In this document: piece after piece, positions 1-44,771 of the stretch
Layout: the number at the start of each line of letters is the position of its first letter
Numbering within the stretch: position 1 is the first letter of the stretch
NCBI RefSeq assembly: GCF_036365525.1
Contig: NC_090399.1
Coordinates: 42,874,430-42,938,429, forward strand
Reading direction: 5' to 3'
Length of the DNA: 64,000 bases
Source: Heterodontus francisci
Taxonomy: Eukaryota
Position numbers and translations under genes: made by a program
Notes under the pieces: model-generated
Told to the model about the DNA's origin: nothing
What the model saw: only the letters and a program-made list of their open reading frames with translations
Database searches by the model: none

Positions 1-3000
1 AAAAACACCAGCCCCACACAGAGAGAGACATCAGGACATGAACCCCAAAGCACCAACCCGTCACAGAGAAACATCAGGACATGAACCCCAAAATACCAAC
101 CCCACACAGAGAGAGACATCAGGAAATGAACCCCAAAACACCAACCCCACGCAGAGAGTCATCAGGACATGAACCCCAAAACACCAACCCCACACAGAGA
201 GACATCAGGACATGAACCCAAAAACACCAGCCCCACACAGAGAGAGACATCAGGACATGAACCCCAAAGCACCAACCCTTCACAGAGAAACATCAGGACA
301 TGAACCCCAAAATACCAACCCCACACAGAGAGAGACATCAGGAAATGAACCCCAAAACACCAACCCCACGCAGAGAGTCATCAGGACATGAACCCCAAAA
401 CACCAACCCCACACAGAGAGACATCAGGACATGAACCCCAAAACACCAACCCCACACAGAGAGACATCAGGACATGAAGCCCAAAACACCAACCCCACAC
501 AGAGAGACATCAGGACATGAACCCCAAAACACCAACCCCACACAGAGAGACATCAGGACATGAACCCCAAAACACCAACCCCACACAGAGAGACATCAGG
601 ACATGAACCCCAAAACACCAACCCCACGCAGAGAGTCATCAGGACATGAACCCCAAAACACCAACCCCACGCAGAGAGTCATCAGGACATGAACCCCAAA
701 GCACCAACCCCTCACAGAGAAACATCAGGACATGAACCCCAAAATACCAACCCCACACAGAGAGAGACATCAGGACATGAACCCCAAAACACCAACACCA
801 CGCAGAGAGACATCAGGACATGAACCCCAAAACACCAACCCCACACAGAGAGACATCAGGACATGAACCCCAAAACACCAACCCCACACAAAGAGACATC
901 AGGACATGAACTCCAAAACACCAACCCCACACAGAGAGACATCAGGATATGAACCCCAAAACACAAACCCCACACAGAGAGACATCAGGACATGAACTCC
1001 AAAACACCAACCCCACACAGAGAGACATCTGGACATGAACCCCAAAACACCAACCCCACACATCGAGACACATCAAGACATGAACCCCAAAACACCAACC
1101 CCACACAGAGAGAGACATCAGGACATGAACCCCAAAACACCAACCCCACACAGAGAAACATCAGGACATGAAACCCAAAACACCAACCCCACTTAGAGCG
1201 AGACATCAGGACATGAACCCCAAAACACCAACCCCACACAGAGAGACACATCAGGACATGAACCCCAAAACACCAACCCCACTTAGAGCGAGACATCAGG
1301 ACATGAACCCCAAAACACCAACCCCACACAGAGAGACACATCAGGACATGAACCCCAAAACACCAACCCCACAGAGAGAAAGACATCAGGACATGAACCC
1401 CAAAACACCAACCCCACACAGAGAAACATCAGGACATGAACCCCAAAACACCAACCCCACACAGAGAAACAACAGGACATGAAACCCAAAACACCAACCC
1501 CACTTAGAGCGAGACATCAGGACATGAACCCCAAAACACCAACCCCACACAGAGAGAAACATCAGGACATGAACCCCAAAACACCAACCCCACACAGAGA
1601 GACACATCAGGACATGAACCCCAAAACACCAACCCCACAGAGAGAGACATCAGGACATGAACCCCAAAACACTAACCCCACACAGAGAGAAACATCAAGA
1701 CATGAACCCCAAAACACCAACCCCACATATCGAGACACATCAGGACATGAACCCCAAAACACCAACCCCACACAGAGACACATCAGGACATGAACCCCAA
1801 AACACCAACACAAGAGAGACATCAGGACATGAACCCCAAAACACCAACCCCACTTAGAGCGAGACATCAGGACATGAACCCCAAAACACCAACCCCACTG
1901 AGAGCGAGACATCAGGACATGAACCCCAAAACACTAACCCCACACAGAGAGAAACATCAGGACATGAACCCCAAAACACCAACCCCACACAGAGAGACAC
2001 ATCAGGACATGAACCCCAAAACACCAACCCCACAGAGAGAGACATCAGGACATGAACCCCAAAACACTAACCCCACACAGAGAGAAACATCAAGACATGA
2101 ACCCCAAAACACCAACCCCACATATCGAGACACATCAGGACATGAACCCCAAAACACCAACCCCACACAGAGACACATCAGGACATGAACCCCAAAACAC
2201 CAACCCCACACAGAGAGACATCAGGATATGAACCCAAAACACCAGCCCCACTTAGAGCGAGACATCAGGACATGAACCCCAAAACACCAACCCCACTTAG
2301 AGCGAGACATCAGGACATGAACCCCAAAACACCAACCCCACACAGAGAGACACATCAGGACATGAACCCCAAAACACCAACCCCACAGAGAGAGACATCA
2401 GGACATGAACCCCAAAACACTAACCCCACACAGAGAGAAACATCAAGACATGAACCCCAAAACACCAACCCCACATATCGAGACACATCAGGACATGAAC
2501 CCCAAAACACCAACCCCACACAGAGACACATCAGGACATGAACCCCAAAACACCAACACAAGAGAGACATCAGGACATGAACCCCAAAACACCAACCCCA
2601 CTTAGAGCGAGACATCAGGACATGAACCCCAAAACACCAACCCCACTGAGAGCGAGACATCAGGACATGAAACCCAAAACACTAACCCCACACAGAGAGA
2701 AACATCAGGACATGAACCCCAAAACACCAACCCCACACAGAGAGACACATCAGGACATGAACCCCAAAACACCATCCCCACAGAGAGAGACATCAGGACA
2801 TGAACCCCAAAACACTAACCCCACACAGAGAGAAACATCAAGACATGAACCCCAAAACACCAACCCCACATATCGAGACACATCAGGACATGAACCCCAA
2901 AACACCAACCCCACACAGAGACACATCAGGACATGAACCCCAAAACACCAACCCCACACAGAGAGACATCAGGATATGAACCCAAAACACCAACCCCACT

Positions 3001-6000
3001 TAGAGCGAGACATCAGGACATGAACCCAAAACACCAACCCCACTTAGAGCGAGACATCAGGACATGAACCCCAAAACACCAACCCCACACAGAGAGACAC
3101 ATCAGGACATGAAACCCAAAACACCAACACAAGAGAGACATCAGGACATGAACCCCAAAACACCAACCCCACACAGAGAGAGACGTCAGGACATGAACCC
3201 CAAAACACCAACACAAGAGAGACATCAGGACATGAACCCCAAAACACCAACCCCACACAGAGACACATCAGGACATGAACCCCAAAACACCAACCCCACA
3301 AAAAGACATCAGGACATAAACCCCAAAACACCAACCCTACACAGAGAGACATCAGGACATGAACCCCAAAACACCAACCCCACATAGGGAGACATCAGAA
3401 CATGAACCCAAAAACACCAGCCCCACACAGAGAGAGACATCAGGACATGAACCCCAAAGCACCAACCCCTCACAGAGAAACATCAGGACATGAACCCCAA
3501 AATACTAACCTCACACAGAGAGAGACATCAGGACATGAACCCCAAAACACCAACCCCACGCAGAGAGTCATCAGGACATGAACCCCAAAACACCAACCCC
3601 ACACAGAGAGACATCAGGACATGAACCCCAAAACACCAACCCCACACAGAGAGACATCAGGACATGAACCCCAAAACACCAACCCCACACAGAGAGACAT
3701 CAGGACATGAACCCCAAAACACCAACCCCACACAGAGAGAGATCAGGACATGAACCCCAAAACACCAACCCCACGCAGAGAGTCATCAGGACATGAACCC
3801 CAAAACACCAACCCCACGCAGAGAGTCATCAGGACATGAACCCCAAAGCACCAACCCCTCACAGAGAAACATCAGGACATGAACCCCAAAATACCAACCC
3901 CACACAGAGAGAGACATCAGGACATGAACCCCAAAACACCAACCCCACGCAGAGAGACATCAGGACATGAACCCCAAAACACCAACCCCACACAGAGAGA
4001 CATCAGGACATGAACCCCAAAACACAAACCCCACACAGAGAGACATCAGGACATGAACTCCAAAACACCAACCCCACACAGAGAGACATCAGGACATGAA
4101 CCCCAAAACACCAACCCCACACATCGAGACACATCAAGACATGAACCCCAAAACACCAACCCCACACAGAGAGAGACATCAGGACATGAACCCCAAAACA
4201 CCAACCCCACACAGAGAGACACATCAGGACATGAACCCCAAAACACCAACCCCACTTAGAGCGAGACATCAGGACATGAACCCCAAAACACCAACCCCAC
4301 ACAGAGAGACACATCAGGACATGAACCCCAAAACACCAACCCCACAGAGAGAAAGACATCAGGACATGAACCCCAAAAAACCAACCCCACACAGAGAAAC
4401 ATCAGGACATGAACCCCAAAACACCAACCCCACACAGAGAAACATCAGGACATGAACCCCAAAACACCAACCCCACACAGAGAAACATCAGGACATGAAA
4501 CCCAAAACACCAACCCCACTTAGAGCGAGACATCAGGACATGAACCCCAAAACACCAACCCCACACAGAGAGAAACATCAGGACATGAACCCCAAAACAC
4601 CAACCCCACACAGAGAGACACATCAGGACATGAACCCCAAAACACCATCCCCACAGAGAGAGACATCAGGACATGAACCCCAAAACACTAACCCCACACA
4701 GAGAGAAACATCAAGACATGAACCCCAAAACACCAACCCCACATATCGAGACACATCAGGACATGAACCCCAAAACACCAACCCCACACAGAGACACATC
4801 AGGACATGAACCCCAAAACACCAACCCCACACAGAGAGACATCAGGATATGAACCCAAAACACCAACCCCACTTAGAGCGAGACATCAGGACATGAACCC
4901 AAAACACCAACCCCACTTAGAGCGAGACATCAGGACATGAACCCCAAAACACCAACCCCACACAGAGAGACACATCAGGACATGAAACCCAAAACACCAA
5001 CACAAGAGAGACATCAGGACATGAACCCCAAAACACCAACCCCACACAGAGAGAGACGTCAGGACATGAACCCCAAAACACCAACACAAGAGAGACATCA
5101 GGACATGAACCCCAAAACACCAACCCCACACAGAGACACATCAGGACATGAACCCCAAAACACCAACCCCACAAAAAGACATCAGGACATAAACCCCAAA
5201 ACACCAACCCTACACAGAGAGACATCAGGACATGAACCCCAAAACACCAACCCCACATAGGGAGACATCAGAACATGAACCCAAAAACACCAGCCCCACA
5301 CAGAGAGAGACATCAGGACATGAACCCCAAAGCACCAACCCCTCACAGAGAAACATCAGGACATGAACCCCAAAATACTAACCTCACACAGAGAGAGACA
5401 TCAGGACATGAACCCCAAAACACCAACCCCACGCAGAGAGTCATCAGGACATGAACCCCAAAACACCAACCCCACACAGAGAGACATCAGGACATGAACC
5501 CCAAAACACCAACCCCACACAGAGAGACATCAGGACATGAACCCCAAAACACCAACCCCACACAGAGAGACATCAGGACATGAACCCCAAAACACCAACC
5601 CCACACAGAGAGAGATCAGGACATGAACCCCAAAACACCAACCCCACGCAGAGAGTCATCAGGACATGAACCCCAAAACACCAACCCCACGCAGAGAGTC
5701 ATCAGGACATGAACCCCAAAGCACCAACCCCTCACAGAGAAACATCAGGACATGAACCCCAAAATACCAACCCCACACAGAGAGAGACATCAGGACATGA
5801 ACCCCAAAACACCAACCCCACGCAGAGAGACATCAGGACATGAACCCCAAAACACCAACCCCACACAGAGAGACATCAGGACATGAACCCCAAAACACAA
5901 ACCCCACACAGAGAGACATCAGGACATGAACTCCAAAACACCAACCCCACACAGAGAGACATCAGGACATGAACCCCAAAACACCAACCCCACACATCGA

Positions 6001-9000
6001 GACACATCAAGACATGAACCCCAAAACACCAACCCCACACAGAGAGAGACATCAGGACATGAACCCCAAAACACCAACCCCACACAGAGAGACACATCAG
6101 GACATGAACCCCAAAACACCAACCCCACTTAGAGCGAGACATCAGGACATGAACCCCAAAACACCAACCCCACACAGAGAGACACATCAGGACATGAACC
6201 CCAAAACACCAACCCCACAGAGAGAAAGACATCAGGACATGAACCCCAAAAAACCAACCCCACACAGAGAAACATCAGGACATGAACCCCAAAACACCAA
6301 CCCCACACAGAGAAACATCAGGACATGAACCCCAAAACACCAACCCCACACAGAGAAACATCAGGACATGAAACCCAAAACACCAACCCCACTTAGAGCG
6401 AGACATCAGGACATGAACCCCAAAACACCAACCCCACACAGAGAGAAACATCAGGACATGAAGCCCAAAACACCAACCCCACACAGAGAGACACATCAGG
6501 ACATGAACCCCAAAACACCAACCCCACAGAGAGAGACATCAGGACATGAACCCCAAAACACTAACCCCACACAGAGAGAAACATCAAGACATGAACCCCA
6601 AAACACCAACCCCACATATCGAGACACATCAGGACATGAACCCCAAAACACCAACCCCACACAGAGACACATCAGGACATGAACCCCAAAACACCAACAC
6701 AAGAGAGACATCAGGACATGAACCCCAAAACACCAACCCCACTTAGAGCGAGACATCAGGACATGAACCCCAAAACACCAACCCCACTTAGAGCGAGACA
6801 TCAGGACATGAACCCCAAAACACTAACCCCACACAGAGAGAAACATCAGGACATGAACCCCAAAACACCAACCCCACACAGAGAGACACATCAGGACATG
6901 AACCCCAAAACACCAACCCCACAGAGAGAGACATCAGGACATGAACCCCAAAACACTAACCCCACACAGAGAGAAACATCAAGACATGAACCCCAAAACA
7001 CCAACCCCACACACAGAGAAACATCAGGACATGAACCCTAAAACACTAACCCCACACACGGAGACACATCAGGACATGAACTCCAAAACACCAACACAAG
7101 AGAGACATCAGGACATGAACCCCAAAACACCAACCCCACACAGATGAGACATCAGGACATGAACCCCAAAACACCAACCCCACACAGAGAGACATCAGGA
7201 CATGAACCCCAAAACACCAACCCCACCCAGAGAGACATCAGGACATGAACCCCAAAACACCAACACAAGAGAGACATCAGGATATGAACCCCAACACACC
7301 AACATCACTCGGAGAGACATCAGGATATGAACCCCAAAACACCAACACAAGAGAGACATCAGGACATGAACCCCAAAACACCAACACAAGAGAGACATCA
7401 GGACATGAACCCCAAAACACCAACACAAGAGACACATCAGGACATGAACCCCAAAACACCAACCCCACACAGAGAGGCATCAGGACATGAACCCCAAAAC
7501 ACCAACACAAGAGAGACATCAGGACATGAACCCCAAAACACCAACCCCACACAGAGAGGCATCAGGACATGAACCCCAAAACACCAACACAAGAGAGACA
7601 TCAGGACATGAACCCCAAAACACCAACACAAGAGAGACATCAGGACATGAACCCCAAAACACCAACCCCACGCAGAGAGGCATCAGGACATGAACCCCAA
7701 AACACCAACCCCACGCAGAGAGGCATCAGGACATGAACCCCAAAACACCAACCCCACACAGAGACACATCAGGACATGAACCCCAAAACACCAACCCCAC
7801 ACAGAGACACATCAGGACATGAACCCCAAAACACCAACCCCACACAGAGACACATCAGGACATGAACCCCAAAACACCAACCCCACACAGAGACACATCA
7901 GGACATGAACCCCAAAACACCAACCCCACACAGAGACACATCAGGACATGAACCCCAAAACACCAACACCGCACAGAGACACATCAGGACATGAACCCCA
8001 AAACACCAACACAAGAGAAACATCAGGACATGAACCCCAAAACACCAACCCCACACAGAGCGGCATCAGGACATGAACCCCAAAACACCAACACAAGAGA
8101 GACATCAGGACATGAACCCGAAAACACCAACACCGCACAGAGACACATCAGGACATGAACCCCAAAACACCAACACAAGAGAAACATCAGGACATGAACC
8201 CAAAACACCAACCCCACACATCGAGACACATCAGGACATGAACCCCAAAACACCAACACAAGAGAGACATCAGGACATGAACCCCAAAACACCAACCGCA
8301 CACAGAGAGACATCAGGACATGAACCCCAAAACACCAACACAAGAGAGACATCAGGACATGAACCCCAAAACACCAACACAACAGAGACATCAGGACATG
8401 AACCCAAAAACACCAGCCCCACACAGAGAGAGACATCAGGACATGAACCCCAAAGCACCAACCCGTCACAGAGAAACATCAGGACATGAACCCCAAAATA
8501 CCAACCCCACACAGAGAGAGACATCAGGACATGAACCCCAAAACACCAACCCACACAGAGAGGCATCAGGACATGAACCCCAAAACACCAACACAAGAGA
8601 GACATCAGGACATGAACCCCAAAACACCAACCCCACACAGAGAGGCATCAGGACATGAACCCCAAAACACCAACACAAGAGAGACATCAGGACATGAACC
8701 CCAAAACACCAACACCACGCAAAGAGGCATCAGGACATGAACCCCAAAACACCAACACAAGAGAGACATCAGGACATGAACCCCAAAACACCAACCCCAC
8801 ACAGAGAGGCATCAGGACATGAACCCCAAAACACCAACACAAGAGACACATCAGGACATGAACCCCAAAACACCAACCCCACACAGAGACACATCAGGAC
8901 ATGAACCCCAAAACACCAACACCACACAGAGAGGCATCAGGACATGAACCCCAAAACACCAACACAAGAGAGACATCAGGACATGAACCCCAAAACACCA

Positions 9001-12000
9001 ACACCACACAGAGAGGCATCAGGACATGAACCCCAAAACACCAACACAAGAGAGACATCAGGACATGAACCCCAAAACACCAACCCCACACAGAGAGGCA
9101 TCAGGACATGAACCCCAAAACACCAACACAAGAGACACATCAGGACATAAACACCAAAACACCAACCCCACACAGAGACACATCAGGACATGAACCCCAA
9201 CACACCAACCCCACAGAGACACATCAGGATATGAACACCAAAACACCAACCCCACACAGAGAGACATCAGTACATGAACCCCAAAACACCAACCCCACCC
9301 AGAGAGACATCAAGACATGAACCCCAAAACACCAACCCCACACAGAGACACATGAGGACATGAACCCCAAAACACCAACCCCACACAGAGAGAGACATCA
9401 GGATATGAACCCCAACACACCAACATCGCACAGAGAGACATCAGGATATGAACCCCAAAACACCAACCCCACCCAGAGATACATCAGGACATGAACCCCA
9501 AAACACCAACCCCACAGAAAAACATCAGGACGTGAACCCCAAATCACCAACACCACACAGAGAAACATCAGGACATGAACCCCAAAACACCAACCCCACA
9601 GAGAGAAAGACATCAGGACATGAACCCCAAAACACCAACCCCACAGAAAAACATCAGGACGGAACCCCAAAACACCAACCCCACAGAGAGAAAGACATCA
9701 GGACATGAACCCCAAAACACTAACCCCACACAGAGACACATCAGGACATGAACCCCAAAACACTAACCCCACACAGAGAGACATCAGGACATGAACCCCA
9801 AAACACCAACCCCACACAGAGACACACATCAGGACATGAAACCCAAAACACCAACCCCACGGAGAGAGACATCAGGACATGAACCCCAAAACACCAACCC
9901 CACACAGAGAGACATCAGGACATGAACCCCAAAACACCAACCCCACACAGAGAGACATCAGGACATGAACCCCAAAACACCAACCCCACACAGAGAGACA
10001 TCAGGACATGAACCCCAAAACACTAACCCCACACAGAGAGACATCAGGACATGAACCCCAAAACACTAACCCCACACAGAGAGACATCAGGACATGAACC
10101 CCAAAACACCAACCCCACACAGAGAGACGTCAGGACATGAACCCCAAAACACCAACCCCACACAGAGAGACATCAGGACATGAACCCCAAAACACTAACC
10201 CCACACAGAGACACACATCAGGACATGAAACCCAAAACACTAACCCCACACAGAGACACATCAGGACATGAACCCCAAAACACCAACCCCACAGAGAGAC
10301 ACATCAGGACATGAACCCCAAAACACCAACCCCACACAGAGAGACACATCAGGACATGAACCCCAAAACACCAACCCCACACAGAGAGACATCAGGACAT
10401 GAACCCCAAAACACCAAACCCACACAGAGAGACATCAGGACATGAACCCCAAAACACCAACCCCAGATAGACACATCAGGACATGAACCCCAAAACACCA
10501 ACCCCACACAGAGGCACATCAGGACATGAACCCCAAAACACCAACCCCACAGAAAAACATCAGGACATGAACCCCAAAACACCAACCCCACAGAGAGACA
10601 CATCAGGACATGAACCCCAAAACACCAACCCCAGATAGACACATCAGGACATGAACCCCAAAACACCAACCCCACAGAAAAACATCAGGACATGAACCCC
10701 AAAACACTAACCCCACACAGAGACACACATCAGGACATGAAACCCAAAACACTAACCCCACACAGAGAGACATCAGGACATGAACCCCAAAACACTAACC
10801 CCACACAGAGACACACATCAGGACATGAAACCCAAAACACTAACCCCACACAGAGAGACACATCAGGACATGAACCCCAAAACACCAACCCCACAGAGAG
10901 ACACATCAGGACATGAACCCCAAAACACCAACCCCACACAGAGAGACACATCAGGACATGAACCCCAAAACACCAACCCCACACAGAGAGACATCAGGAC
11001 ATAAACACCAAACCCACACAGAGAGACATCAGGACATGAACCCCAAAACACCAACCCCAGATAGACACATCAGGACATGAACCCCAAAACACCAACCCCA
11101 CACAGAGGCACATCAGGACATGAACCCCAAAACACCAACCCCACAGAAAAACATCAGGACATGAACCCCAAAACACCAACCCCACAGAGAGACACATCAG
11201 GACATGAACCCCAAAACACCAACCCCAGATAGACACATCAGGACATGAACCCCAAAACACCAACCCCACAGAAAAACATCAGGACATGAACCCCAAAACA
11301 CCAACACCACTCGGAGACACATCAGGACATGAACCCCAAAACCCAACCCCACAGAAAGACATCTGGACATGATGCCCAAAACACCAACCCCACACAGAGT
11401 CATCAGGACATGAACCCCAAAACACCAACCCCACACAGAGACACATTAGTTCATGAACCCCAAAACACCAACCCCACGGAGAGACATCAGTTCATGAACC
11501 CCAAAACACCAACCCCACGGAAAGACATCAGGACATGAACCCCAAAACACCAACACAAGAGAGACATCAGGACATGAACCCCAAAACACCAACCCCACAC
11601 AGAGAGACATCAGGACATGAACCCCAAAACACCAAACCCACACAGAGAGAGACATCAGGACATGAACCCCAAAACACAAACCCCACACAGAGAGAGACAT
11701 CAGGACATGAACCCCAAAACACCAACACCACACAGAGAGACATCAGGACATGAACCCCAAAACACCAACCCCACACAGAGAGCCATCAGGACATGAACCC
11801 CAAAACACCAACCACACACAGAGAGAGACATCAGGACATGAACCCCAAAACACCAACACCACACAGAGAGACATCAGGACATGAACCCCAAAACACCAAC
11901 CCCACACAGAGAGCCATCAGGACATGAACCCCAAAACACAAACCCCACACAGAGAGAGACATCAGGACATGAACCCCAAAACACCAACCCCACAGAAAGA

Positions 12001-33000: not shown

Positions 33001-36000
33001 AGAAAAACATCAGGACATGAACCCCAAAACACCAACCCCACAAAGAGAGACACATCAGGACATGAACCCCAAAACACCAACCCCACCAGAGAGACATCAG
33101 GATATGAACCTCAAAACACCAACACCACTCGGAGACACATCAGGACATGAACCCCAAAACCCAAGCCCACAGAAAGACATCTGGACATGATGCCCAAAAC
33201 ACCAACCCCACGCAGAGTCATCAGGACATGAACCCCAAAACACCAACCCCACGGAGAGACATCAGTTCATGAACCCCAAAACACCAACCCCACGGAAAGA
33301 CATCAGGACATGAACCCCAAAACACCAACACAAGAGAGACATCAGGACATGAACCCCAAAACACCAACCCCACACAGAGAGACATCAGGACATGAACCCC
33401 AAAACACCAAACCCACACAGAGAGAGACATCAGGACATGAACCCCAAAACACCAACACCACACAGAGAGACATCAGGACATGAACCCCAAAACACCAACC
33501 CCACACAGAGAGAGACATCAGGACATGAACCCCAAAACACCAACCCCACAGAAAGACATCAGGACGTGAACCCCAAAACACCAACATCTCACAGAGAAAC
33601 ATCAGGACGTGAACCCCAAAACACCAACCCCACACAGAGAAACATCAGGACATGAACCCCAAAACACCAACCCCACACAGAGAGACATCAGGACATGAAC
33701 CCCAAAACACCAACCCCACACAGAGAGACATCAGGACATGAACCCCAAAACACCAACCCCACACAGAGAAACATCAGGACATGAACCCCAAAACACCAAC
33801 CCCACACAGAGAAACATCAGGACATGAACCCCAAAACACCAACCCCACACAGAGAGACATCAGGACATGAACCCCAAAACACTAACCCCACACAGAGAGA
33901 CACATCAGGACGTGAACCCCAAAACACCAACATCACACATCGAGACACATCAGGACATGAACCCCAAAACACCAACCCCACACAGAGAAACATCAGGACA
34001 TGAACCCCAAAACACCAACCCCACACAGAGAAACATCAGGACATGAACCCCAAAACACCAACCCCACACAGAGAAACATCAGGACATGACTCCCAAAACA
34101 CCAACCCCACACAGAGAAACATCAGGACATGAACCCCAAAACACCAACCCCACACAGAGAAACATCAGGACATGAACCCAAAAACACCAACCCCACACAG
34201 AGAAACATCAGGACATGAACCCCAAAACACCAACCCCACACAGAGAAACATCAGGACATGAACCCCAAAACACCAACCCCACACAGAGAGACATCAGGAC
34301 ATGAACCCCAAAACACCAACCCCACACATCGAGACACATCAGGACATGAATCCCAAAACGCCAACCCCACATATCGAGACACATCAGGACATGAACCCCA
34401 AAACACTAACCCCACACAGAGAGACACATCAGGACATGAACCCCAAAACACCAACCCCACACAGAGAGACATCAGGATATGAACCCCAAAACACCAACCC
34501 CACGCAGAGACACATCAGGGCATGAACCCCAAAACACCAACACGAGAGAGACATCAGGACATGAACCCCAAAACACCAACCCCACCAGAGAGACATCAGG
34601 ATATGAACCCCAAAACACCAACCCCACAAAGAGAGACACATCAGGACATGAACCCCAAAACACCAACCCCACCAGAGAGACATCAGGATATGAACCCCAA
34701 AACACCAACCCCACGCAGAGAGACATCAGGATATGAACCCCAAAACACCAACACCACTCGGAGACACATCAGGACATGAACCCCAAAACCCAACCCCACA
34801 GAAAGACATCTGGACATGAACCCCAAAACACCAACCCCACGCAGAGTCATCAGGACATGAACCCCAAAACACCAACCCCACACAGAGACACATCAGTTCA
34901 TGAACCCCAAAACACCAACCCCACCAGAGAGACATCAGGATATGAACCCCAAAACACCAACCCCACGCAGAGACACATCAGGACATGAACCCCAAAACAC
35001 CAACACGAGAGAGACATCAGGACATGAACCCCAAAACACCAACCCCACCAGAGAGACATCAGGATATGTACCCCAAAACACCAACCCCACGCAGAGACAC
35101 ATCAGGACATGAACCCCAAAACACCAACCCCACCAGAGAGACATCAGGATATGAACCCCAAAACACCAACACCACTCGGAGACACATCAGGACATGAACC
35201 CCAAAACCCAACCCCACAGAAAGACATCTGGACATGAACCCCAAAACACCAACCCCACACAGAGAGACACATCAGGACATGAACCCCAAAACACCAACCC
35301 CACACAGAGAGACATCAGGATATGAACCCCAAAACACCAACCCCACGCAGAGACACATCAGGACATGAACCCCAAAACACCAACACGAGAGAGACATCAG
35401 GACATGAACCCCAAAACACCAACCCCACCAGAGAGACATCAGGATATGAACCCCAAAACACCAACACCACTCGGAGACACATCAGGACATGAACCCCAAA
35501 ACCCAACCCCACAGAAAGACATCTGGACATGAACCCCAAAACACCAACCCCACACAGAGAGACACATCAGGACATGAACCCCAAAACACCAACCCCACAG
35601 AAAGACATCAGGACGTGAACCCCAAAACACCAACACCTCACAGAGAGACATCAGGACATGAACCCCAAAACACAAACCCCACACAGAGAGAGACATCAGG
35701 ACATGAACCCCAAAACACAAACCCCACACAGAGAGAGACATCAGGACATGAACGCCAAAACACCAACACCTCACAGAGAGACATCAGGACATGAACCCCA
35801 AAACACAAACCCCACACAGAGAGAGACATCAGGACATGAAACCCAAAACACAAACCCCACACAGAGAGAGACATCAGGACATGAACCCCAAAACACCAAC
35901 ACCTCACAGAGAGACATCAGGACATGAACCCCAAAACACCAAACCCACACATAGAGAAAGACATCAAGACATGAAACCCAAAACACCAACCCCACACACA

Positions 36001-36095
36001 CACACAGATATCAGGACATGAACCCCAAAATACCAACCCCAGAGAGAGACAGCAGTACATGAACCCCCAAAAAAAGAACCAAACAGAGAGAAAGA
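1..36095. repeat. Large tandem satellite, 39-45 bp unit (consensus CATCAGGACATGAACCCCAAAACACCAAC + CCCACACAGAGAGA), about 850 copies, open at the left window edge
   Basis: The constant 29-nt core recurs without interruption, followed by a 10-16 nt tail drawn from a limited set (ACAAGAGAGA, CCCACACAGAGAGA, CCCACTTAGAGCGAGA, CCCACATATCGAGACA, CCCACAGAAAAA, CCCACCAGAGAGA). The last units degenerate at about 35,940-36,095. Copy number is estimated as length divided by mean unit size. Confidence 0.99.
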
Positions 36096-36279
36096 GGCAC
36101 TGATATCCCACAACCTCCCTTCCCAACCCCTGACAATGCTCTAAAAGCCTGTGATCTCCCAGATCTCACACTGAATTCCAATCAGGGACTCTGTGAACTC
36201 ATGTCTCACCCGTTCTTCCTCCAGTCCCCCCACAATCTAACCCGATTTGTTACCTGGAACTTGCTGCACTCACCTTTCA

Positions 36280-36318
36280 TTACATTAAAGGCGCTATATA
36301 AATATAAATTGTTGTTGT
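36280..36318 (+). mobile_element. Isolated SINE/L2-type 3' tail remnant
   Basis: TACATTAAAGGCGCTATATAAATATAAATTGTTGTTGT resembles the AAGGCGCTATATAAATGCAAGTTGTTGTTG tail of elasmobranch Deu/Sac-type SINEs (recalled). Confidence 0.45.
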
Positions 36319-36454
36319 AATCTGTGCGCCCTGCTCCTGTAGCACCATCTACTGTACGGTGAGGTCTCTGGAGCTCCTCAGAGCTCAACATTTGAGTGTG
36401 GACTGTTAACACTGTGTGAGGTGGGGGAGCTCCTGAATTTAACCCAGAGCATTT

Positions 36455-37350
36455 TATATCGAAGTTTGCTGTCGACACGAAGTTGGGTAACTCAGTAAAT
36501 TGTGTAGACAGGAGACAGGAAGTTACAAAGAGACACTGACAGATTAAATGAGCGGGCAAAACTAGGGCAGATGGAGTTCACTGTGGGAAATATGAGATCA
36601 TCCACTTTGGGTCTAAGAAAGATAAATGGGTATATTTTCCATCCGGTGGGAAACTTGAACCTGGGGAGAGCAAATGGAGAAATCATTACAGACCAGTGGA
36701 CAGGGACAATAAGGATTTGGAAGGCTGGCCTTTATCTCGGGGGGACTGCAATACAAAGGGGTGGAAGTTATGTTCCAGTTTATATAAAGCTCTGGTCAGA
36801 CTCCATTTGGAGTAACTGTGTTCAGTTCTGGGCCCCGGACCTCAGGAAGGATAGAATGGCCTTGGGGAGAGAGCAACACAGATTCACCAGAATGATCCTG
36901 GGGTTTAGAGGGTTAAATTATGAGGACATGTTGTTTAGACTCAGCTTGTATTCTCTCCATTATGGAAGATTGAAGGTGATGTGATCGAGGTGTTTAAAAT
37001 GTTACAAGGATTTGATAGAATCAATATGAAGAAACGATTTCCCCGAGTGGGAGAATCAAGAACGAGGAGACATAATCTTAAAATTAGAGCCAGACTGTTC
37101 TGGAGTGAAATCAGGAAGCACTTCTTCACACAAAGAGCAGTGGAAACCTGGAACTCTCTCCCCCAAAAGTCTGTGGATACAGGGGATCAATTGCAGCTTT
37201 CAGAGCTGAGATAGACTTTTGTTGGGTCAGTGTCTCGACGGAGATTGAGCAAACGTAGGAAAATGGAGTTGAGACATAGATCAACCATGATCTAATTGAA
37301 TAGTGGAACAGGCTCAAGGGGCTGAATACCCTACCCCTGTTCTTATGTTC
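36455..37350 (+). mobile_element. CR1 LINE 3' fragment (RT C-terminus + 3'UTR), degenerate
   Basis: Starts at an ISKFA(V)DTKLG-like motif; ORF pieces CVQFWAPDLRKDRMAL...FTRMI and IEVFKMLQGFDR...RKHFFTQRAVETWNSLP; ends in a TTCTTATGTTC tail. Confidence 0.92.
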
Positions 37351-37498
37351 CTCTCTCTCCATCCCCATATCCCTGTCCCTCAGTCCACTGCCCACACCCT
37401 GCTCCCACCATGGTCTCTCCTTCTCCAGCCCCAGTACCGAGCCTGCTACCATCTCCCTCAGACTCCATTATCCACTGAGCAAGGGGAAATGCTCCAGT

Positions 37499-38870
37499 AA
37501 AAAGAGAAAATGCTGGAAATACTCAGGTCAGGTAATATCTGTGGAGAAAGAAAGAGAGTTAACGTTTCCGGTTGATGACATTTGATCAGAACTGGGAAAA
37601 GTTATAAATGTCATTAAGGTTTTAAGCAAGTGAACAGGGGGAGGGTGGGAAAAGAATAACAGGGAAGATGGAAGGCAGGGGAGATTAAATCACGAAAGGG
37701 TTGATGGTGGAAGGCCAAAGGGAGTGGTAATAGGACAAGTAAAGAAACAAAAGAGGAGTCTAGAGGTGTAAATGACGGAATCATGAACAGCTGCTTCCGA
37801 AACCAAAAACAATCGAAAAACGAGTTAAAATCAAAAGCTGCAAAAAAAAGGGAAACAAAAAAGGGGCCAGAGATGACAATCTGAAATTGTTGAACTCAAT
37901 GTTGAGTTCGAAAGACTGTAAAGTGCCTCATTGAAACATGAGGTTCAGTTCCTCGAGCTTAAATTGAGCTTCATTGGAACAGGAGGCCGAGGACAGAGAG
38001 GTCAGAGTGGGAGCAAAGCGTAAAGTTACAATGGAAGGCCACCGGAAGCTGGGAAATTGCAGATTGAACAGAGGTGTTGCGCAAAGCAATCACCCAATCT
38101 GTATTTTATCTCCCAAATGTAGAGCAGACTGCATCATGAGCAGTGAATACAGGAGACTAAATTGAAAGTACATGTAAATTGCTGTTTTACCTGGAAGGAA
38201 TGTTTGTGGCCTTGGACAGTGAGAAGAGAGCAGGTAAAAGGGCAGGTGTTGCATCTCATGCGCTTGCAATGGAAAGGGGCTGTGGAAAGGGGAGAGGCTG
38301 TTGGGGGTGATTGAGAAGTGGACCAGGGTGTCGTAGAGGGAAATGTCCCTTTGGAATGTTGAAATGGGAGGGGGAAGATGTGTTTGGTGGTCGTATCACG
38401 CTGGAGGTGGTTCAAATGGCCAAGGATGAATACGGAGGCTGGTGGGGTGGAAGGTGGGGACAAGAGGAACCTCATCATGGTTCTGGGAGGGAGGGGAAGG
38501 GGTGAAGGCAGATGTGCGGGAAATGGGACGGACATGATCAAGAGCCCCCTTGAACTATGGTGGGGGGACTCCTTCGTTGAGGAGAAAGGAAGACATATCG
38601 GAAGCACTGGTATGAAAGGGTGCATCGTCAGAACAGATATGATGGAGATGGAGAAACTGGGAGAATAGACTGGAGTCCTTACAGGAAGCAGAGTGTGAGG
38701 AAGAGTAGTCGAGTTAGCTGAAAGAATCAGTAGGTTTATCGTGAATATAAGCTGATTGTCTCCATTCCTGGATGTCGGCTGAGAGGTCAAGGAAGAGAAG
38801 GGAAGAGTTGGAGATGCAACATGTGAAGGTGAGTGAAAGGTGGAAATTGGAAACTGATGCAATTTTCCAG
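37499..38870 (-). mobile_element. Penelope-like element 3' part (RT C-terminus, GIY-YIG remnant, pseudo-LTR)
   Basis: Minus ORF 38134-38862 ends CKRMRCNTCPFT...VKQQFTCTFNLVSCIHCS, typical of the PLE linker and GIY-YIG start. The terminal repeat at 37,499-37,600 carries a degenerate hammerhead core. Confidence 0.85.
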
Positions 38871-38914
38871 ATCAGTGTGATATCAGAAAATGGCACCAAT
38901 ACACTTTGTTTCCA

Positions 38915-39766
38915 ATTTCCACTGAGGAAAGGTCACAGACCTGAAATGTTAACTCAGTTTCTCTCTCTCCACAGATGCTGCCCGACCAGCTGTGTATTTC
39001 CAGAACTGTTTTAATTTCAGGTTTCCAGCATCTGCATTATCTTTTATTTTATTTCAGTGATTTACTTGTACCTCTTTCAATCAAGTATATTATATTCACT
39101 GCTCACAATGCGATCTCCTCTGCATTGTGGAGAAAGCAGATTGGGTGACCGCTTTGTGAAACACCTCCATTCAGTCCACAAGAGTGACCCAAGCTTCTCG
39201 TTCCCTGTTATTTTAATTCTCCACCTTGCTCTCACTCTGACATCTCTGTCCTCAGCCTCATACACTGTTTCAATGAAGCTCGAGGAACAGAACCTCATCT
39301 TTCAATGAGGCAGTTTACAGCTTCCAGAATCATTGAGTTCAACTATTTCAGAATGTAATCCCTTCCTCCATTTTGTTTCCTACTTCTTTGCGGATTTCAG
39401 TTTTACTTTTGTTTTTATCCTTTTTCTTTGCTTTAGAAGGGCAGGTTTTCATGATTCTGCCAATCACACCTCCTCTTTACTTGTGCCATTACCACTCCCT
39501 TTGGCCTTGCAGCAACAACTCTTTTTTTTTCCATTTAACCCCTTCTCCCGTTCACCCGATACAGACCTTCCCTTTTGTTCTTTTTCCAACCTTCCCCCTT
39601 TCACCTCTTTAAACCTGATTGCATTTCTAACTTTTCCCGGTTCTGACAAAAGGTCATCGACCTGAAACGTTAACACTTTCTCCACAGATGGTGCCAGAAC
39701 TGCTGAGTATTTCCAGAATTTTCTATTTTTATTCAGATTTCCAGCAACCACAGTATTTTGCTTTTG
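38915..39766 (+). mobile_element. Penelope-like element: pseudo-LTR, GIY-YIG remnant, pseudo-LTR (opposite orientation to the adjacent copy)
   Basis: GESRLGDRFVKHLHSVHK remnant flanked by two similar repeats (38,922-39,050 and 39,643-39,766), each starting CTGA..AAAGGTCA..GACCTGAAA(C/T)GTTAAC. Confidence 0.85.
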
Positions 39767-39773
39767 TGCTGAG

Positions 39774-40759
39774 GCCCCAGTACCCAGTCTAGCACAGCCC
39801 CGATCACACCCCATTACTCACTGATCGAGGGTTAATGCCCCAGTACCCAGTCTGGCACTGTCCCTCTCACACCCCATTACTCACTGATCGAGAGTTAATG
39901 CCCCAGTACCCAGCCTGGCACTGTCCCTCTCACACCCATTACTCACTGACCGAGGGTTAATTTCCCAGTACCCAGCCTGGCACTGTCCCTCTCACACCCA
40001 TTACTCACTGACCGAGGGTTAATGCCCCAGTACCCAGTCTGGCACTGTCCCTCCCACAACCCATTACTCACTGACCGAGGGTTAATGGCCCAGTACCCAG
40101 TCTGGCACTGTCCCTTTCACACCCCATTACTCACTGACCGAAGGTAAATGCCCCAGTACCCAGTCTAGCACTGTCCCTCTCACACCCCATTGCTCACTGA
40201 CCGAGGGTTAATGCCCCAGTACCCAGTCTGGCACTGTCCCTCTCACACCCCATTACTCACTGACCGAGGATTAATGCCCCAGTACCCAGCCTGGCACTGT
40301 CCCTCTCACAACTCATTACTCACTGATCGAGGGTTAATGCCCCAGTACCCAGTCTGGCACTGTCCCTCTCACACCCCATTACTCACTGACCGAGGATTAA
40401 TGCCCCAGTACCCAGCCTGGCACTGTCCCTCTCACAACTCATTACTCCCTGATCGAGGGTTAATGCCCCAGTACCCAGTCTGGCACTGTCCCTCTCACAC
40501 CCCATTACTCACTGACCGAGGATTAATGCCCCAGTACCCAGCCTGGCACTGTCCCTCTCACAACTCATTACTCCCTGATCGAGGGTTAATGCCCCAGTAC
40601 CCAGTCTGGAACTGTCCCTCTCACACCCCATTACTCACTGACCGAGGATTAATGCCCCAGTACCCAGCCTGGCACTGTCCCTCTCACAACTCATTACTCC
40701 CTGATCGAGGGTTAATGGCCCAGTACCCAGTCTAGCACTGTCCCTCTCACACCCCATTA
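39774..40759. repeat. 63-bp minisatellite, distal block (about 15.5 copies)
   Basis: Unit TTACTCACTGACCGAGGGTTAATGCCCCAGTACCCAGTCTGGCACTGTCCCTCTCACACCCCA, giving the 21-aa periodicity in the ORF track. A diverged copy lies at about 37,428-37,499 beyond the Penelope insertions. Confidence 0.97.
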
Positions 40760-43700
40760 AGAACATAAGAAATAGGAGCAGGAGTAGGCCATTCAGCCCC
40801 TCAAGCCTACCCTGCCAATCATTAAGATCATGGCTGATCGGCCCCAGACCTCAACTCCTCTTTCGTGCCAGCTCCTCTTAGCCCTCAACTCCCCAATATT
40901 TCAAAAATCTATCTACCTCCTCTTTAAATACTTTCAGTGATCTAGCCTCCACAACTTTCTGGGCGAGAGAATTCCAGACATTCACTACCCTGAGAGAAGA
41001 AATTCCTTCGCATCTCAGTTTTAAATGAGTGTCCCCTTATTCTGTAACTATGTCCCCTAGTTTGAGATTCCCCCACTGGTGGAAACATCTTCTCAACATC
41101 TACCCTGTCAAGCCCCCTCAGTATCTCGTACCTTTCAATAAGATCACCCCTCATTCTTCGAAACTCTAATGAAAAAAGGCCTAACCTGTTTAGCCGTTCT
41201 TGATAAGTCAATCCCTTCATCCCAGGAATCAGCCTCGTGAATCTCTTTTGAACTGCCTCCAATGCCAGTATATCCTTTCTGAAATATGGGGACCAAAACT
41301 GTACGCAGTACTCCAGGTGCGACCTCACCAACACCCTGTACAGTTGTAACAAGATTTCCCTATTTTTAAACTCTAACCCCCGAGCAATAAAGGCCAAAAT
41401 TCCATTTGCCTTCTTAATTACTTGCTGCACCTGCATGCTAACTTTGTGTTTCATGCACAAGAACACTCAGATCCCTCTGTGCTGAACTTTATTGAAGTCT
41501 TTCTCCATTTAAATAATAGTCTGCCTTTTGATCTCACACTTCCCCACATTAAACTCCATCTGTCAAGTTTTTGCCCATTCACTCAACCTATCTATATCCC
41601 CCTTCAGATTCCTTATGTCCTCATCACAATGTGCCCTCCCACCTATTTTTGTATCAGCAGCAAATTTGGATACATTACACTCTGCTCCCTCCTCCATGTC
41701 ATTAATATAAATAAATAATTGAGTCCCCAAGCCTGATCCTTGTGGCACTCCACTAGTTATGTATTTCTAACCTGAAAAAGACCCATTAATCCCGAATCTG
41801 TCGTCTGTGAGTTAACCAATCCTCAATCTATGCTGATACATTACCCACAATACCGTGAGCTCCTATCTTGTGCAATAATCTTTTATGTGGCACCTTATCA
41901 AATGCCTTCTGGAAATCTAAATACACTCCATCTACTGGTTCCTGTTTATCAACTCTGCTTGTTATAACCTCAAAAGAATTCTCGCAAATTTGTCAAACAT
42001 GATTTCCCTTTCATAAAACCATGTTGACTCTGTTTGATTGCATTAAGCTTTTCTAAACATCCTGTTATTTCTTCCTTAATAATGGACTCCAGCATTTTCC
42101 CAATGACCGATGTTAAGCTGACTGGCCTATAGTTTCCTGCTTTTTGTCTCCCTCCCTTCCTGAACAGGGGCATCACATTAGTGGTTTTCCAATCTGCTGG
42201 GACAATCCCGGAATCCAGTGAGTTCCGGAATATTTCGACCAATGCCTCCATTATCTCTGCAGCCACTTCCTTTAAAACCCTTGGATGTCGGCCATCAGGT
42301 CCTAGTGACTTGTTTGCCTTTACTCCCATTAGTTTGTCAAATACTTTGTCACTCGTGATAGAGACTGTTACAAGATCTTTCCTCCCATTAGCTCCTTGCT
42401 TATCTGATATCTGTGGGATGTTTATAGTGTCCTCCGCCGTGAAGACCGATGCAATATATTGGTTTAAATTATCTGCCATTTCCCTGTTCCCCGTTGTCAA
42501 TTCTCCAGTCGCATCCTCCAAGGGTCCCACGCTCACTTTAGCTACTCTCTTTTTTATATACCCATAGAAGCTCTTGCTGTTTGTTTTTATATTTCTTGCC
42601 AATTTACTTTCATAATCAGTTGTCTCCTTCTTTATTAGCTTTTTAGTCATCCGCTGCTAGTTCCCAAAAAATTCCCAATCCTCTGGCCTACCATTAGTTT
42701 TTGCCGCTTTGTATGCCTTAGTTTTTGATTGGATACTCTCCTTGACCGCCTTTGTTAACCACGGGTAGTTCATCCTTCTCATCGAGTCCTGCTTTTTGAC
42801 CGGGATAGATTTTTGCTGAGCGTTATGAAATATCTGCTGAAATGTCTGCCACTGCTCATCCACTGACCTTCCCCTTGGACTATTTTCCCAGCCTGCTTGA
42901 GACAACTCTTTCTTCATACCTCCGTAATTGCCCTTGTTTAAGTTGAAGACACTGGTTTGTGACCCGAGTTGCTCGCCCTCAAACTGAATTTGAAATTCTA
43001 CCATGTTGTGATTGCTACCCCCTCGAGGATCCTTAACTACCATATCTCTTATTAATCCTACCTCATTACACATTACTAGATCGAAAATAGCCTGTTCCCT
43101 GGTAGGTTCTGCAATGGATTGTTCTAAGTAACAATCCCTGATGCACTCTACAAATTCGTCTTCCATGTTACCTCTGCCAATCAATATGCAGATTAAAATC
43201 ACCCATGACAATTGTCGTGCCCTTCTTACATGCCTCCATTATTTCCTGATTTATATTTTGTCTGACAATGAGGCAACTCTTCGGGGGGCCTATAGACGAC
43301 AGCCACCCGTGACCTCTTCCCCTTGCTATTCCTGATTTCAACCCAAACTGATTCCACATCACGATCTATTGCACCTATATCACTACTCACCACTGCACTG
43401 ATACCTTACTTTATTAACAAAGCTACCCCACCTCCTTTTCCTTTTTGCCTATTTTTCTGGAATACCCTTGAATATTGAGTTCCCAGTCTTTGTCACCCTG
43501 CAACCACGTCTCTGTAATAGCTATCAAATCATATTCATTTATTTCGATATGTGCCATCAACTCATCTATCTTGTTACAAATGCTGCGTGCATTCAGATAA
43601 AGAGCTTTAAGCTTTGACTTTTTACCATTATTACTCATTCTGGTTCTAATTTCTGCTAAACTCTTCTGCTTATATTTTCTGCCCCTTCCTGTCACACTTA

Positions 43701-43801
43701 GATTACCGTTCGCCTCTTCACTACCCTGGAACTCTGCTCTCTCGTTTCTTTTAGATTTTTTAAACTTCCCTTCAATTGAACCCTCCCCCCAACTAATTAG
43801 T
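40760..43801 (-). mobile_element. CR1 LINE spanning nearly all of ORF2 (APE endonuclease + RT), frameshifted, 5'-truncated
   Basis: ORF pieces LYLNARSICNK..IAITETWL, IVMGDFN, EPTREQAIFDLV..SNHNMV, GNYRPVSLTSVIGKMLE..QHGFMKGKSCLTN, PQGS..SKFAADTKIGG, LEYCVQFWSP..; 3' tail CCTATTTCTTATGTTCT. Inserted inside a 63-bp unit with TTA at both junctions (40,757-40,759 and 43,802-43,804). Confidence 0.96.
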
Positions 43802-44624
43802 TTACTCACTGACCGAGGGTTAATGCCCCAATACCCAGTCTGGCACAGCCCCTCTCACACCCCATCACTCACTGACTGAGGGTTAATGCCCCAATACCCA
43901 GTCTGGCACTGTCCCTCTCACACCCCATTACTCACTGACCGAGGGTGAATGCCCCAATACCCAGTCTGGCACTGTCCCTCTCACACCCCATCACTCACTG
44001 ACTGAGGGTTAATGCCCCAATACCCAGTCTGGCACTGTCCCTCTCACACCCCATTACTCACTGAGGGTTAATGCCCCAGTACCCAGTCTGGCACTGCCCC
44101 TCTCACACCCCATTACTCACTGACCGAGGGTTAATGCCCCAATACCCAGTCTGGCACTGTCCCTCTCACACCCCATTACTCACTGACCGAGGGTTAATGC
44201 CCCAGTACCCAGTCTGGCACTGTCCCTCTCACACCCCATTACTCACTGACTGAGGGTTAATGCCCCAGTACCCAGTCTGGCACTATCCCTGTCACACCCC
44301 AGCACTCACTTACTGAGGGTTAATGTCCCAATACCCAGTCTGGCACTGTCCCTCTCACAACCCATTACTCACTGACTGAGGGTTAATGCCCCAATACCCA
44401 GCCTGGCACTGTCCCTCTCACACCCCATTACTCACTGACCGAGGGTTAATGCCCCAGTCCCCAGTCTGGCACTGTCCCTCTCACACCCCATCACTCACTG
44501 ACCGAGGGTTAATGCCCCAATACCCAGTCTGGCACTGTCCCTCTCACACCCCATCACTCACTGACCGAGGGTTAATGCCCCAATACCCAGTTTGACACTG
44601 TCCCTCTCACACTCCATTACTCAC
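43802..44624. repeat. 63-bp minisatellite, proximal block (about 13 copies), abutting the splice donor of the leader exon
   Basis: Same unit as 39,774-40,759. The terminal copy ends ...ACTCCATTACTCAC, i.e. minus-strand GTGAGTAATGGAGT, the intron start. Confidence 0.97.
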
Positions 44625-44673: not shown

Positions 44674-44771
44674 TGTTGCTTCCCTCGACAAGCTGAAAGG
44701 AGCAGTTTGTGGGAAATCCTTTTCCAAAAAACCTTTGCTTCTCAGTCTGTGAGCTGTGTCCTGTACTGATG

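What the first reader, a model, noticed from the sequence alone, without database searches (positions are those of the whole stretch)
1..44624. Putative intron 1 is at least 44.6 kb and about 80% satellite, or the leader exon is orphaned
Seen: between the donor and the window edge I find only minisatellite, LINE/PLE, under 0.5 kb of unique sequence (36,095-36,455) and the 36-kb array. No HSLRYF-like alpha1 exon or other ~270-nt exon is apparent. Inference: either Pol II transcribes through at least 36 kb of tandem repeat before exon 2, so array length could tune or silence this copy, or the expansion has separated the promoter and leader from the gene body.
Basis: partly seen in the sequence, partly recalled or inferred. 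Interest (0 to 1): 0.7.

Follow-up and report, generated by a model that had tools for sequence, protein, structure and literature searches.

The report
Shark MHC gene, 58-kb repeat intron
The missing exons of this horn shark immune gene (MHC class I) lie just beyond a 58,000-base tandem repeat that fills 87% of its first intron, so the gene is intact rather than orphaned, and the repeat, built from the intron's own likely splicing signal, is likely transcribed and spliced out as a tolerated passenger.

Summary
The leader exon is not orphaned. Exon 2 (alpha1) starts 22.2 kb left of the window, right where the array ends; seven exons splice in frame to a complete 344-aa class I heavy chain. Intron 1 is 66,815 bp, 87% one 43-bp array (58.2 kb, about 1,350 units). 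The unit is the intron's own branch-point/pyrimidine stretch without the AG. An older database protein (AAC60348.1) has this leader joined to this copy's domains, and 4 of 4 probable RNA runs hold its exon 2-3 junction; no run showed a leader-exon 2 contig specific to this copy. A 99%-identical neighbour has 51 kb of array; a paralogue with the same proximal promoter has 0.84 kb. The unit sits at 21 of 26 class I acceptors surveyed and expanded separately to 54 kb in another class I gene and 99 kb before a TAP-like exon. AG-creating variants are not purged. Silencing is contradicted; tuning is untested. The gene is a nonclassical, UBA-like class I. This scan has already noted similar satellite introns in this and other genomes. 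Verdict: real, an extreme variant of known splice-site minisatellites, modest interest.

The parts
44784..44904 (-). Class I promoter motifs (kB-like GGGGATCCCC 44,904-44,895; ISRE-like 44,882-44,875 and 44,795-44,784; X/X2-like 44,868-44,850; Y box CTGATTGG 44,834-44,827); motif names are recalled consensus
   Evidence: positions; identical in copies A, B and C over the 345 bases above the donor
44674..44770 (-). Likely 5' UTR; probable-RNA contigs cover about 44,624-44,770
   Evidence: contigs cannot show a true start site
44625..44673 (-). Exon 1 coding part, leader peptide MIGLIVLVLLCGGVSA+G, 49 nt, phase 1
   Evidence: loose ends at 44,624 are exon-2 sequence
1..44624 (-). In-window part of intron 1. 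The intron goes on 22,191 bases left of position 1 (whole intron G000:C29:42,919,053-42,852,239, 66,815 bp). Beyond it, all outside the window on the minus strand of C29: exon 2 alpha1 42,852,238-42,851,978 (261 nt); exon 3 alpha2 42,844,628-42,844,356 (273 nt); exon 4 alpha3 42,843,718-42,843,455 (264 nt); exon 5 transmembrane 42,835,091 (or 42,835,094)-42,834,984; exon 6 42,834,291-42,834,259; exon 7 42,833,892-42,833,846 (to the stop)
   Evidence: exon 2-3 junction in 4 of 4 runs
43802..44624 (-). 63-bp minisatellite starting at the donor; units repeat GTGAGT (23 CAGTGAGT sites in the two 63-bp arrays and the DNA between them)
40760..43801 (-). Decayed LINE (reverse transcriptase remnant) between the two 63-bp arrays
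   Evidence: RVT_1, E 7.9e-07, just under the curated cut-off
39774..40759 (-). Second 63-bp minisatellite block
36073..39773 (.). Retroelement-like fragments and short unique intron sequence; aligns to intron 1 of paralogue C at about 91%
   Evidence: no Pfam family for the frames tested here
1..36072 (-). In-window part of the 43-bp array (units mostly 39-45 bp; branch-point-like CCTGAT, pyrimidine tract, G/T runs; no AG in the consensus). It continues without gap or N to G000:C29:42,852,256; whole array 58,246 bp; its last unit holds the branch-point-like A 23 bases before the intron end

Best explanation
This is an intact MHC class I gene, likely nonclassical, whose 66.8-kb first intron is 87% a tandem amplification of the intron's own likely branch-point/pyrimidine stretch, which is likely transcribed end to end and spliced out as a tolerated passenger. 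Shown: gene structure, reading frame, array size and position, make-up of the unit, and its presence at most class I intron-1 acceptors. Inferred: (1) the last unit supplies the working branch point 23 bases before the intron end; (2) upstream units rarely compete because the founding unit has no AG, no poly(A) hexamer and no strong donor, so the 17 accidental decoy acceptors have no donor to define an exon with; (3) the array grew by unequal exchange of multi-kb blocks after this lineage split from paralogue C and before the duplication that made copies A and B, and is still drifting in length; (4) the cost is extra transcription time, not silencing.
For: Only 17 bases lie between the array's last called base and exon 2, which is in frame with the leader. 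Seven exons with GT/AG ends translate exactly to database proteins XP_067865801.1 and XP_067865803.1. AAC60348.1 carries the leader and matches copy A at both positions where A and B differ, with 1 difference in 345 aa from the assembly (tree 100/89). A contig with 0 mismatches joins the A/B-specific end of exon 2 to A/B exon 3 in 4 of 4 probable RNA runs; the donor at 44,624 is joined to exon-2 sequence. Array, sense strand: 3.6 AG/kb against 83 in the rest of the intron and about 21 expected from composition; 0 AATAAA or ATTAAA; 0 GTRAGT; 4 GT sites at 7 of 9 donor matches and none higher; CpG 419 against 2,851 expected. The unit is at 21 of 26 alpha1 acceptors surveyed, from 1 unit to about 1,350. 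Exact internal duplications up to 2.5 kb in A and 4.0 kb in B, and collinear A-B blocks with stepwise offsets; 98.9% of array A is covered by 100-mers shared with B, 0% with J, and 0% of array C by 100-mers shared with A. No deficit of AG-creating variants in A or B (10-11 per 1,000 site-copies against 5-17 for other changes to A). Context: 15 of 20 spot samples across the class Ia region are more than half tandem repeat.
Against: No laid contig carries the A/B-specific bases in the 5' 89 bases of exon 2, so the leader-to-exon 2 junction of this copy was not seen directly in the runs. The runs are only guessed to be RNA, are one sample and one study, and are not tied to the sequenced animal; the array length in the animal behind AAC60348.1 is unknown, and that it is a cDNA is recalled. 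An expressed allele could carry a short array. Exons 1-3 of A and B encode the same residues, so the runs cannot tell which copy is expressed. In array J, AG-creating variants are rarer than the other changes (2.6-2.9 against 7-20 per 1,000), which would fit selection, but the copies are not independent. Branch-point use was not measured.
Confidence: 0.78

Rival explanations
1. Array length is a regulatory dial: the same promoter gives less, later or differently spliced mRNA as the array grows (elongation time, R-loops on the G-rich strand, or sequestering of branch-point and pyrimidine-tract binding proteins).
For: Copies A, B and C have the same 345 bases above the donor but arrays of 58.2, 51.4 and 0.84 kb; nine closely similar paralogues of another clade vary from 2.7 to 14.5 kb; separate expansions to 54 kb (gene J) and about 99 kb (before a TAP-like first coding exon) hit antigen-presentation genes. 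Human tandem repeats can change splicing (PMC10078293, passages).
Against: A/B-type spliced contigs are present in 4 of 4 runs. No purge of AG, low CpG, no canonical G-quadruplex motif. Repeats of many unrelated kinds fill the class Ia region, so repeated expansion needs no function.
Confidence: 0.12
2. The assembled long-array copies are silent or poorly spliced and the transcripts come from an unassembled short-array allele or copy.
For: No copy-specific leader junction in the runs; RNA and DNA are not tied to one haplotype.
Against: Only two alpha1 exons of this type were found in the assembly and both have giant arrays; both reading frames are intact and AAC60348.1 differs from A at 1 of 345 residues; the short-intron paralogue C shows the same gap in run X1, so the gap is uninformative.
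Confidence: 0.06
3. Assembly artefact: the array is misjoined or mis-sized, or copies A and B are two haplotypes placed in tandem.
For: A and B flanks are mostly 98-99.6% identical over about 90 kb of aligned blocks at an offset of 391-398 kb; long arrays are hard to size.
Against: No N in the region. Both array ends are collinear in A and B, and both flanks are the homologous intron and exon in paralogue C. All 227 genome-wide exact matches of a 50-mer of this variant are accounted for by A (117) and B (110), so the likeliest misjoin would be an A/B chimera with the same layout. 264 distinct unit types give anchors. The neighbouring genes E and F in the two blocks differ clearly.
Confidence: 0.04
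4. The leader and promoter are orphaned from the gene body.
For: Only that no exon lies inside the window.
Against: Exon 2 follows the array directly and in frame; the full gene is intact; the same layout holds in copy B.
Confidence: 0.01

Closest known systems
Horn shark class I protein AAC60348.1 / O19480 (recalled: cDNA clone Hefr-19 of Bartl et al. 1997; paper seen only as a reference-list entry) and RefSeq models XP_067865801.1 / XP_067865803.1
   Same: Same gene: 344 of 345 residues for AAC60348.1, exact match for the RefSeq models.
   Different: The protein records say nothing about the intron; I found no paper describing the array.
Shark nonclassical class I, UBA lineage (PMC10751288 and PMC12562908, passages read)
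   Same: Multicopy, far from the TAP/proteasome class Ia region, groups 100/100 with nurse shark O19479 and apart from 6LUP and O19481.
   Different: That O19479 is UBA is recalled; the rxrb flank was not tested.
Splice-site minisatellites: human F7 intron 7 37-bp VNTR, IFI6 (6-16) intron 2, CBS intron 13, LMNB2, PDGF (PMC1557585, abstract and passages)
   Same: An intronic tandem repeat made from the gene's own splice signal, with decoy copies that mostly stay unused. The 63-bp arrays here are of this donor type.
   Different: The 43-bp array is acceptor-side, repeats branch point and pyrimidine tract but not the AG, and has about 1,350 units against 5-25 in the human cases.
Gigantic introns of Drosophila Y genes (PMC11207136, abstract only; satellite content recalled)
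   Same: An essential step is transcription through long repeat DNA inside an intron.
   Different: Those genes exceed 4 Mb; this intron is 67 kb, lies in an MHC gene, and its repeat derives from the splice signal.
Long, repeat-rich intron 2 of teleost class I genes (PMC3684511, passages)
   Same: Large repeat-rich intron next to the alpha1 exon of a class I gene.
   Different: There it lies between alpha1 and alpha2 and is linked to exon shuffling; here it lies between leader and alpha1 and is one tandem array.

Membership tests
MHC class I heavy chain | Leader, alpha1, alpha2, alpha3 (C1 Ig), transmembrane and cytoplasmic exons in one open frame | tested here: met
MHC class I heavy chain | alpha1/alpha2 homologous to solved class I structures | tested here: met
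   PF00129 over cut-off; best PDB match of alpha1 6LUP, E 6.7e-28
Classical class Ia (UAA) | Eight peptide-end anchoring residues (Y7, Y59, R84, T143, K146, W147, Y159, Y171; list recalled) | tested here: not met
   5 of 8 kept; Y59A, T143I, K146N against 6LUP (alignment)
Classical class Ia (UAA) | Tight linkage to TAP and immunoproteasome genes | tested here: not met
   ABC-membrane hits at 65.1-65.7 Mb and a proteasome hit at 65.9 Mb of the contig; this gene is at 42.9 Mb
Classical class Ia (UAA) | High allelic polymorphism | not testable with these tools
   one assembly and one older sequence only
Shark class Ib, UBA lineage | Clade with nurse shark UBA, apart from UAA | tested here: met
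   100/100 clade of 20 of 40 rows that includes O19479 and excludes 6LUP and O19481; the UBA label for O19479 is recalled
Shark class Ib, UBA lineage | Multicopy cluster away from the class Ia region | tested here: met
   copies A-G at 32.2-42.9 Mb
Shark class Ib, UBA lineage | Flanked by c4 and rxrb | tested here: inconclusive
   complement-type TED hits at 30.9, 31.8 and 46.1 Mb, not typed as C4; rxrb not searched
Splice-site minisatellite (F7 intron 7 type) | First unit spans the exon-intron boundary and reiterates the donor | tested here: not met
   43-bp array is acceptor-side and stops short of the AG; the separate 63-bp arrays do reiterate GTGAGT
Splice-site minisatellite (F7 intron 7 type) | Unit derived from the gene's own splice signal | tested here: met
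   a single unit forms the acceptor region in paralogues E, F and the 40.3-Mb copy
Splice-site minisatellite (F7 intron 7 type) | Decoy sites stay unused | tested here: inconclusive
Splice-site minisatellite (F7 intron 7 type) | Length polymorphism between individuals | not testable with these tools
   varies between paralogues; no second genome held
Gigantic introns (Drosophila Y type) | Hundreds of kb to Mb in size | tested here: not met
   66.8 kb
Gigantic introns (Drosophila Y type) | Dependence of transcription on co-transcriptional splicing | not testable with these tools
   needs perturbation experiments

The most novel reading that the evidence does not exclude
The AG-less branch-point unit is a splice-neutral, self-amplifying satellite of the shark MHC that has moved between antigen-presentation genes (class I intron 1 in two clades and the first coding exon of a TAP-like gene) and whose length, from 1 unit to about 99 kb, works as a heritable dial on the level or timing of expression from otherwise identical interferon-type promoters.
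Probability: 0.12. Interest if true: 0.72.

Novelty: new variant of a known kind. Interest (0 to 1): 0.35.

Why it matters
It shows that a vertebrate immune gene can carry about 1,350 copies of its own branch-point/pyrimidine stretch in front of the real acceptor and stay intact, far beyond the 5-25 units of the human splice-site minisatellites. Copies A, B and C give a ready natural experiment: the same proximal promoter and leader with 58, 51 and 0.84 kb of array, so the effect of intronic satellite length on expression and splicing can be tested directly. It also warns that shark class I genes may be split or missed in short-read assemblies and genomic PCR. The gene itself is known and the simplest reading is neutral, so the surprise is moderate.

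Tried and rejected
Selection against AG in the array: not supported in A or B, mixed in J and the H copies; the low AG content comes from the founding unit. Copy-specific leader-exon 2 junction: not seen; no laid contig had the A/B bases in the 5' 89 bases of exon 2, but paralogue C shows the same gap in run X1, so the gap was not used either way. No RNA holder was listed as on record. Contig depths were not used to rank copies. Both read-laying runs went on exons, so intron retention and decoy use inside the array remain untested. Repeat confined to class I intron 1: rejected; 2,046 of 3,196 genome-wide matches of a 26-base core lie in the class I regions I held, and a further array lies before a TAP-like exon. 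Canonical G-quadruplex motif: 0 in A and J. PLE identity of 37.5-39.8 kb: no Pfam support. The C1-set search scored only 150 of 626 candidates and did not list this gene's alpha3; it was found by motif scan instead. The papers defining shark class Ib lineages (Almeida 2020, 2021; Ohta 2002; Bartl 1997) were not read, so lineage names rest on two other papers and recall; their figures and supplements may describe intron sizes. Literature searches for this array found nothing; most subscription papers are not searched. One alpha1 match of 27 (53.4 Mb) was not surveyed. No other shark genome was available, so conservation across species is untested. The look-up of earlier notes near this window returned none.
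Full report
Observation. The window holds a class I promoter and leader exon on the minus strand (MIGLIVLVLLCGGVSA, 44,673-44,625, donor CAG|GTGAGT), two 63-bp arrays, retroelement remnants and a 43-bp array from 36,072 to the window edge, which is 80.8% of positions 1-44,624. A PF00129 search of the genome finds no alpha1 or alpha2 exon inside the window.

Where the gene goes. The window is G000:C29:42,874,430-42,938,429, and the same search finds alpha1 and alpha2 exons 22 and 30 kb to its left on the same strand. The fetched DNA has no N, and the array continues without a break to 42,852,256, for 58,246 bp and about 1,350 units. Exon 2 starts at 42,852,238 after TTTTTCAG. Intron 1 is 66,815 bp and 87.2% array. 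Seven exons of 49, 261, 273, 264, 108, 33 and 47 coding bases with GT/AG ends translate exactly to XP_067865801.1, and with a tandem acceptor to XP_067865803.1. The leader is therefore not orphaned. The named proteins are from Heterodontus francisci.

Expression. AAC60348.1, an older database protein, has the leader joined to these domains, differs from copy A at 1 of 345 residues and shares both residues that separate A from its neighbour B. That it is a 1997 cDNA is recalled; I saw that paper only as a reference entry. Four runs guessed to be RNA, one sample and one study, each hold a contig with no mismatch that joins the A/B-specific end of exon 2 to A/B exon 3, and contigs at the donor continue into exon-2 sequence. 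Against this: no laid contig carries the A/B bases in the first 89 bases of exon 2, so this copy's own leader junction was not seen. Paralogue C, with a short intron, has the same gap in run X1, so the gap says nothing. The array length in the animals behind these sequences is unknown.

Paralogues. A DNA search with promoter and leader finds a 100% copy (B) 398 kb away and a 99% copy (C) 10 Mb away. B has a 51.4-kb array in a 60,170-bp intron; C has 0.84 kb in 14,522 bp; D about 0.8 kb at the acceptor in 11,668 bp. A, B and C are identical over the 345 bases above the donor. I surveyed 26 of the 27 alpha1 matches: 21 have the unit at the acceptor, as a single unit in three, 2-32 unit hits in six, 2.7-14.5 kb in nine closely similar genes of another clade, and 51-58 kb in A, B and gene J at 66.5 Mb; 5 do not. 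The three genes at 66.3-67.0 Mb that sit outside the starred nonclassical clades, beside O19481 and 6LUP, are among those that lack it. J lies in a different clade, has a different unit and shares no 100-mer with A, so its 54-kb array is a separate expansion.

What the unit is. On the sense strand it reads as a branch-point-like CCTGAT, a CT tract and G/T runs. The last unit places that A 23 bases before the intron end, inside the usual 19-37 range quoted in PMC10078293 (passages). The array has 3.6 AG per kb against 83 in the rest of the intron, no AATAAA or ATTAAA, no GTRAGT, 17 decoy acceptors among 92 YAG sites, and CpG at 15% of expectation; 4 GT sites reach 7 of 9 donor matches and none more, while the real donors score 9 and 8 (the real donors scored by hand). 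I infer that decoy acceptors fail for lack of a partner donor and that nothing obvious in the array stops transcription. AG-creating variants are not under-represented in A or B, so this is a property of the founding unit and not evidence of selection; J shows a deficit and the H copies are mixed, with non-independent copies throughout.

How it grew. The arrays contain near-exact internal duplications up to 2.5 kb (A) and 4.0 kb (B), and A and B are collinear from end to end with stepwise offsets; 98.9% of A is covered by 100-mers shared with B, and none of C's 100-mers are in A. I infer expansion by unequal exchange after the split from C and before the A/B duplication, with 6.8 kb of drift since. 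In C a 2.5-kb dispersed repeat splits the small array in two.

Artefact check. All 227 exact matches of a 50-mer are in A (117) and B (110), both ends are collinear, and both flanks match C. A misjoin to another locus is unlikely. A and B could be two haplotypes in tandem (flanks mostly 98-99.6% identical), though the neighbouring genes E and F differ; the conclusion about the intron holds either way.

Gene family. The protein keeps 5 of 8 recalled peptide-anchoring residues, lies about 23 Mb from the TAP-like and proteasome hits, between complement-type hits at 31.8 and 46.1 Mb, and groups 100/100 with nurse shark O19479, apart from 6LUP and O19481, in a tree of ectodomains from 40 of the 130 proteins held. 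This fits the multicopy UBA class Ib cluster described in PMC10751288 and PMC12562908 (passages); the UBA label for O19479 is recalled.

Comparison and novelty. It works like the human splice-site minisatellites (PMC1557585, abstract and passages) but is acceptor-side, lacks the AG and has about 50 to 270 times as many units; it is far smaller than the Drosophila Y introns (PMC11207136, abstract). Simple repeats in a nurse shark class I gene and large shark genes have been mentioned before (PMC1513397, passages), as have long repeat-rich class I introns in fish (PMC3684511, passages). Searches found no paper on this array. Context lowers the surprise: 15 of 20 spot samples across the class Ia region are mostly tandem repeat, and the scan lists 9 findings with the words MHC, class, intron, satellite and shark in at least 4 genomes, 8 of them shown (unchecked notes except where stated).

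Verdict. Real feature, intact and probably expressed gene, most likely a tolerated passenger array; a regulatory role is open and testable. New variant of a known kind, interest 0.35.

Noticed in passing
G000:C29:65,681,500-65,780,170 (-); L112-L115, L123-L125: About 99 kb of the J-type 43/45-bp unit ends in TTTCAG directly before a TAP-like first coding exon, so the class I acceptor unit also sits in a non-class I gene; what lies upstream (promoter, UTR exon) was not found.
   Followed up: partly
G000:C29:66,469,296-66,528,138 (+); L081-L086, L073: Class I gene J (protein P0101, another clade) has a 58.8-kb intron 1 with a 54-kb array of a related unit, 0.8 AG per kb: an independent expansion.
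   Followed up: partly
G000:C29:57.4-62.8 Mb, C815, C1655; L068-L070, L087-L098: Nine closely similar class I genes carry 2.7-14.5 kb of the array; a length series behind one leader type.
   Followed up: partly
window 39,774-40,759 and 43,802-44,624: The 63-bp minisatellite starts at the exon 1 donor and repeats GTGAGT (23 CAGTGAGT sites); a LINE remnant splits it in two.
   Followed up: partly
G000:C29:42,843,870-42,844,366; L024: A 32-bp repeat copies the end of exon 3 and its donor into intron 3; other short arrays sit near the exon 2 donor, the exon 3 acceptor and exon 6.
   Followed up: no
G000:C29:42.40-42.55 Mb against 42.79-42.94 Mb: Tandem block with an offset of 391-398 kb at mostly 98-99.6% identity holding copies A and B; a recent duplication or two haplotypes. 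A third, inverted copy of the neighbouring gene lies at 40.3 Mb.
   Followed up: partly
G000:C29:42,835,092-42,835,094; L024: Tandem acceptor (CAGCAG) at the transmembrane exon gives isoforms with or without one alanine; AAC60348.1 has the longer form.
   Followed up: yes
G000:C29:65.0-65.9 Mb; L101-L120: 15 of 20 spot samples of 1.5 kb in the TAP/proteasome region are mostly tandem repeat, of several unrelated units.
   Followed up: no
window 60,984-63,180 (+): Broken reading frames that by eye resemble the reverse transcriptase, RNase H and integrase of an LTR retrotransposon.
   Followed up: no
window 47,491-48,018; 49,410-49,929; 57,722-58,188: Further minisatellites (49, 15 and 33 bp) upstream of the promoter, shared with copy B.
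   Followed up: no
G000:C29:42,970,721-42,971,080 and 42,577,194-42,578,328 (+): Promoter/leader-like pieces in the opposite orientation about 52-56 kb upstream of copies A and B, one with a short-period repeat made from a promoter segment.
   Followed up: no
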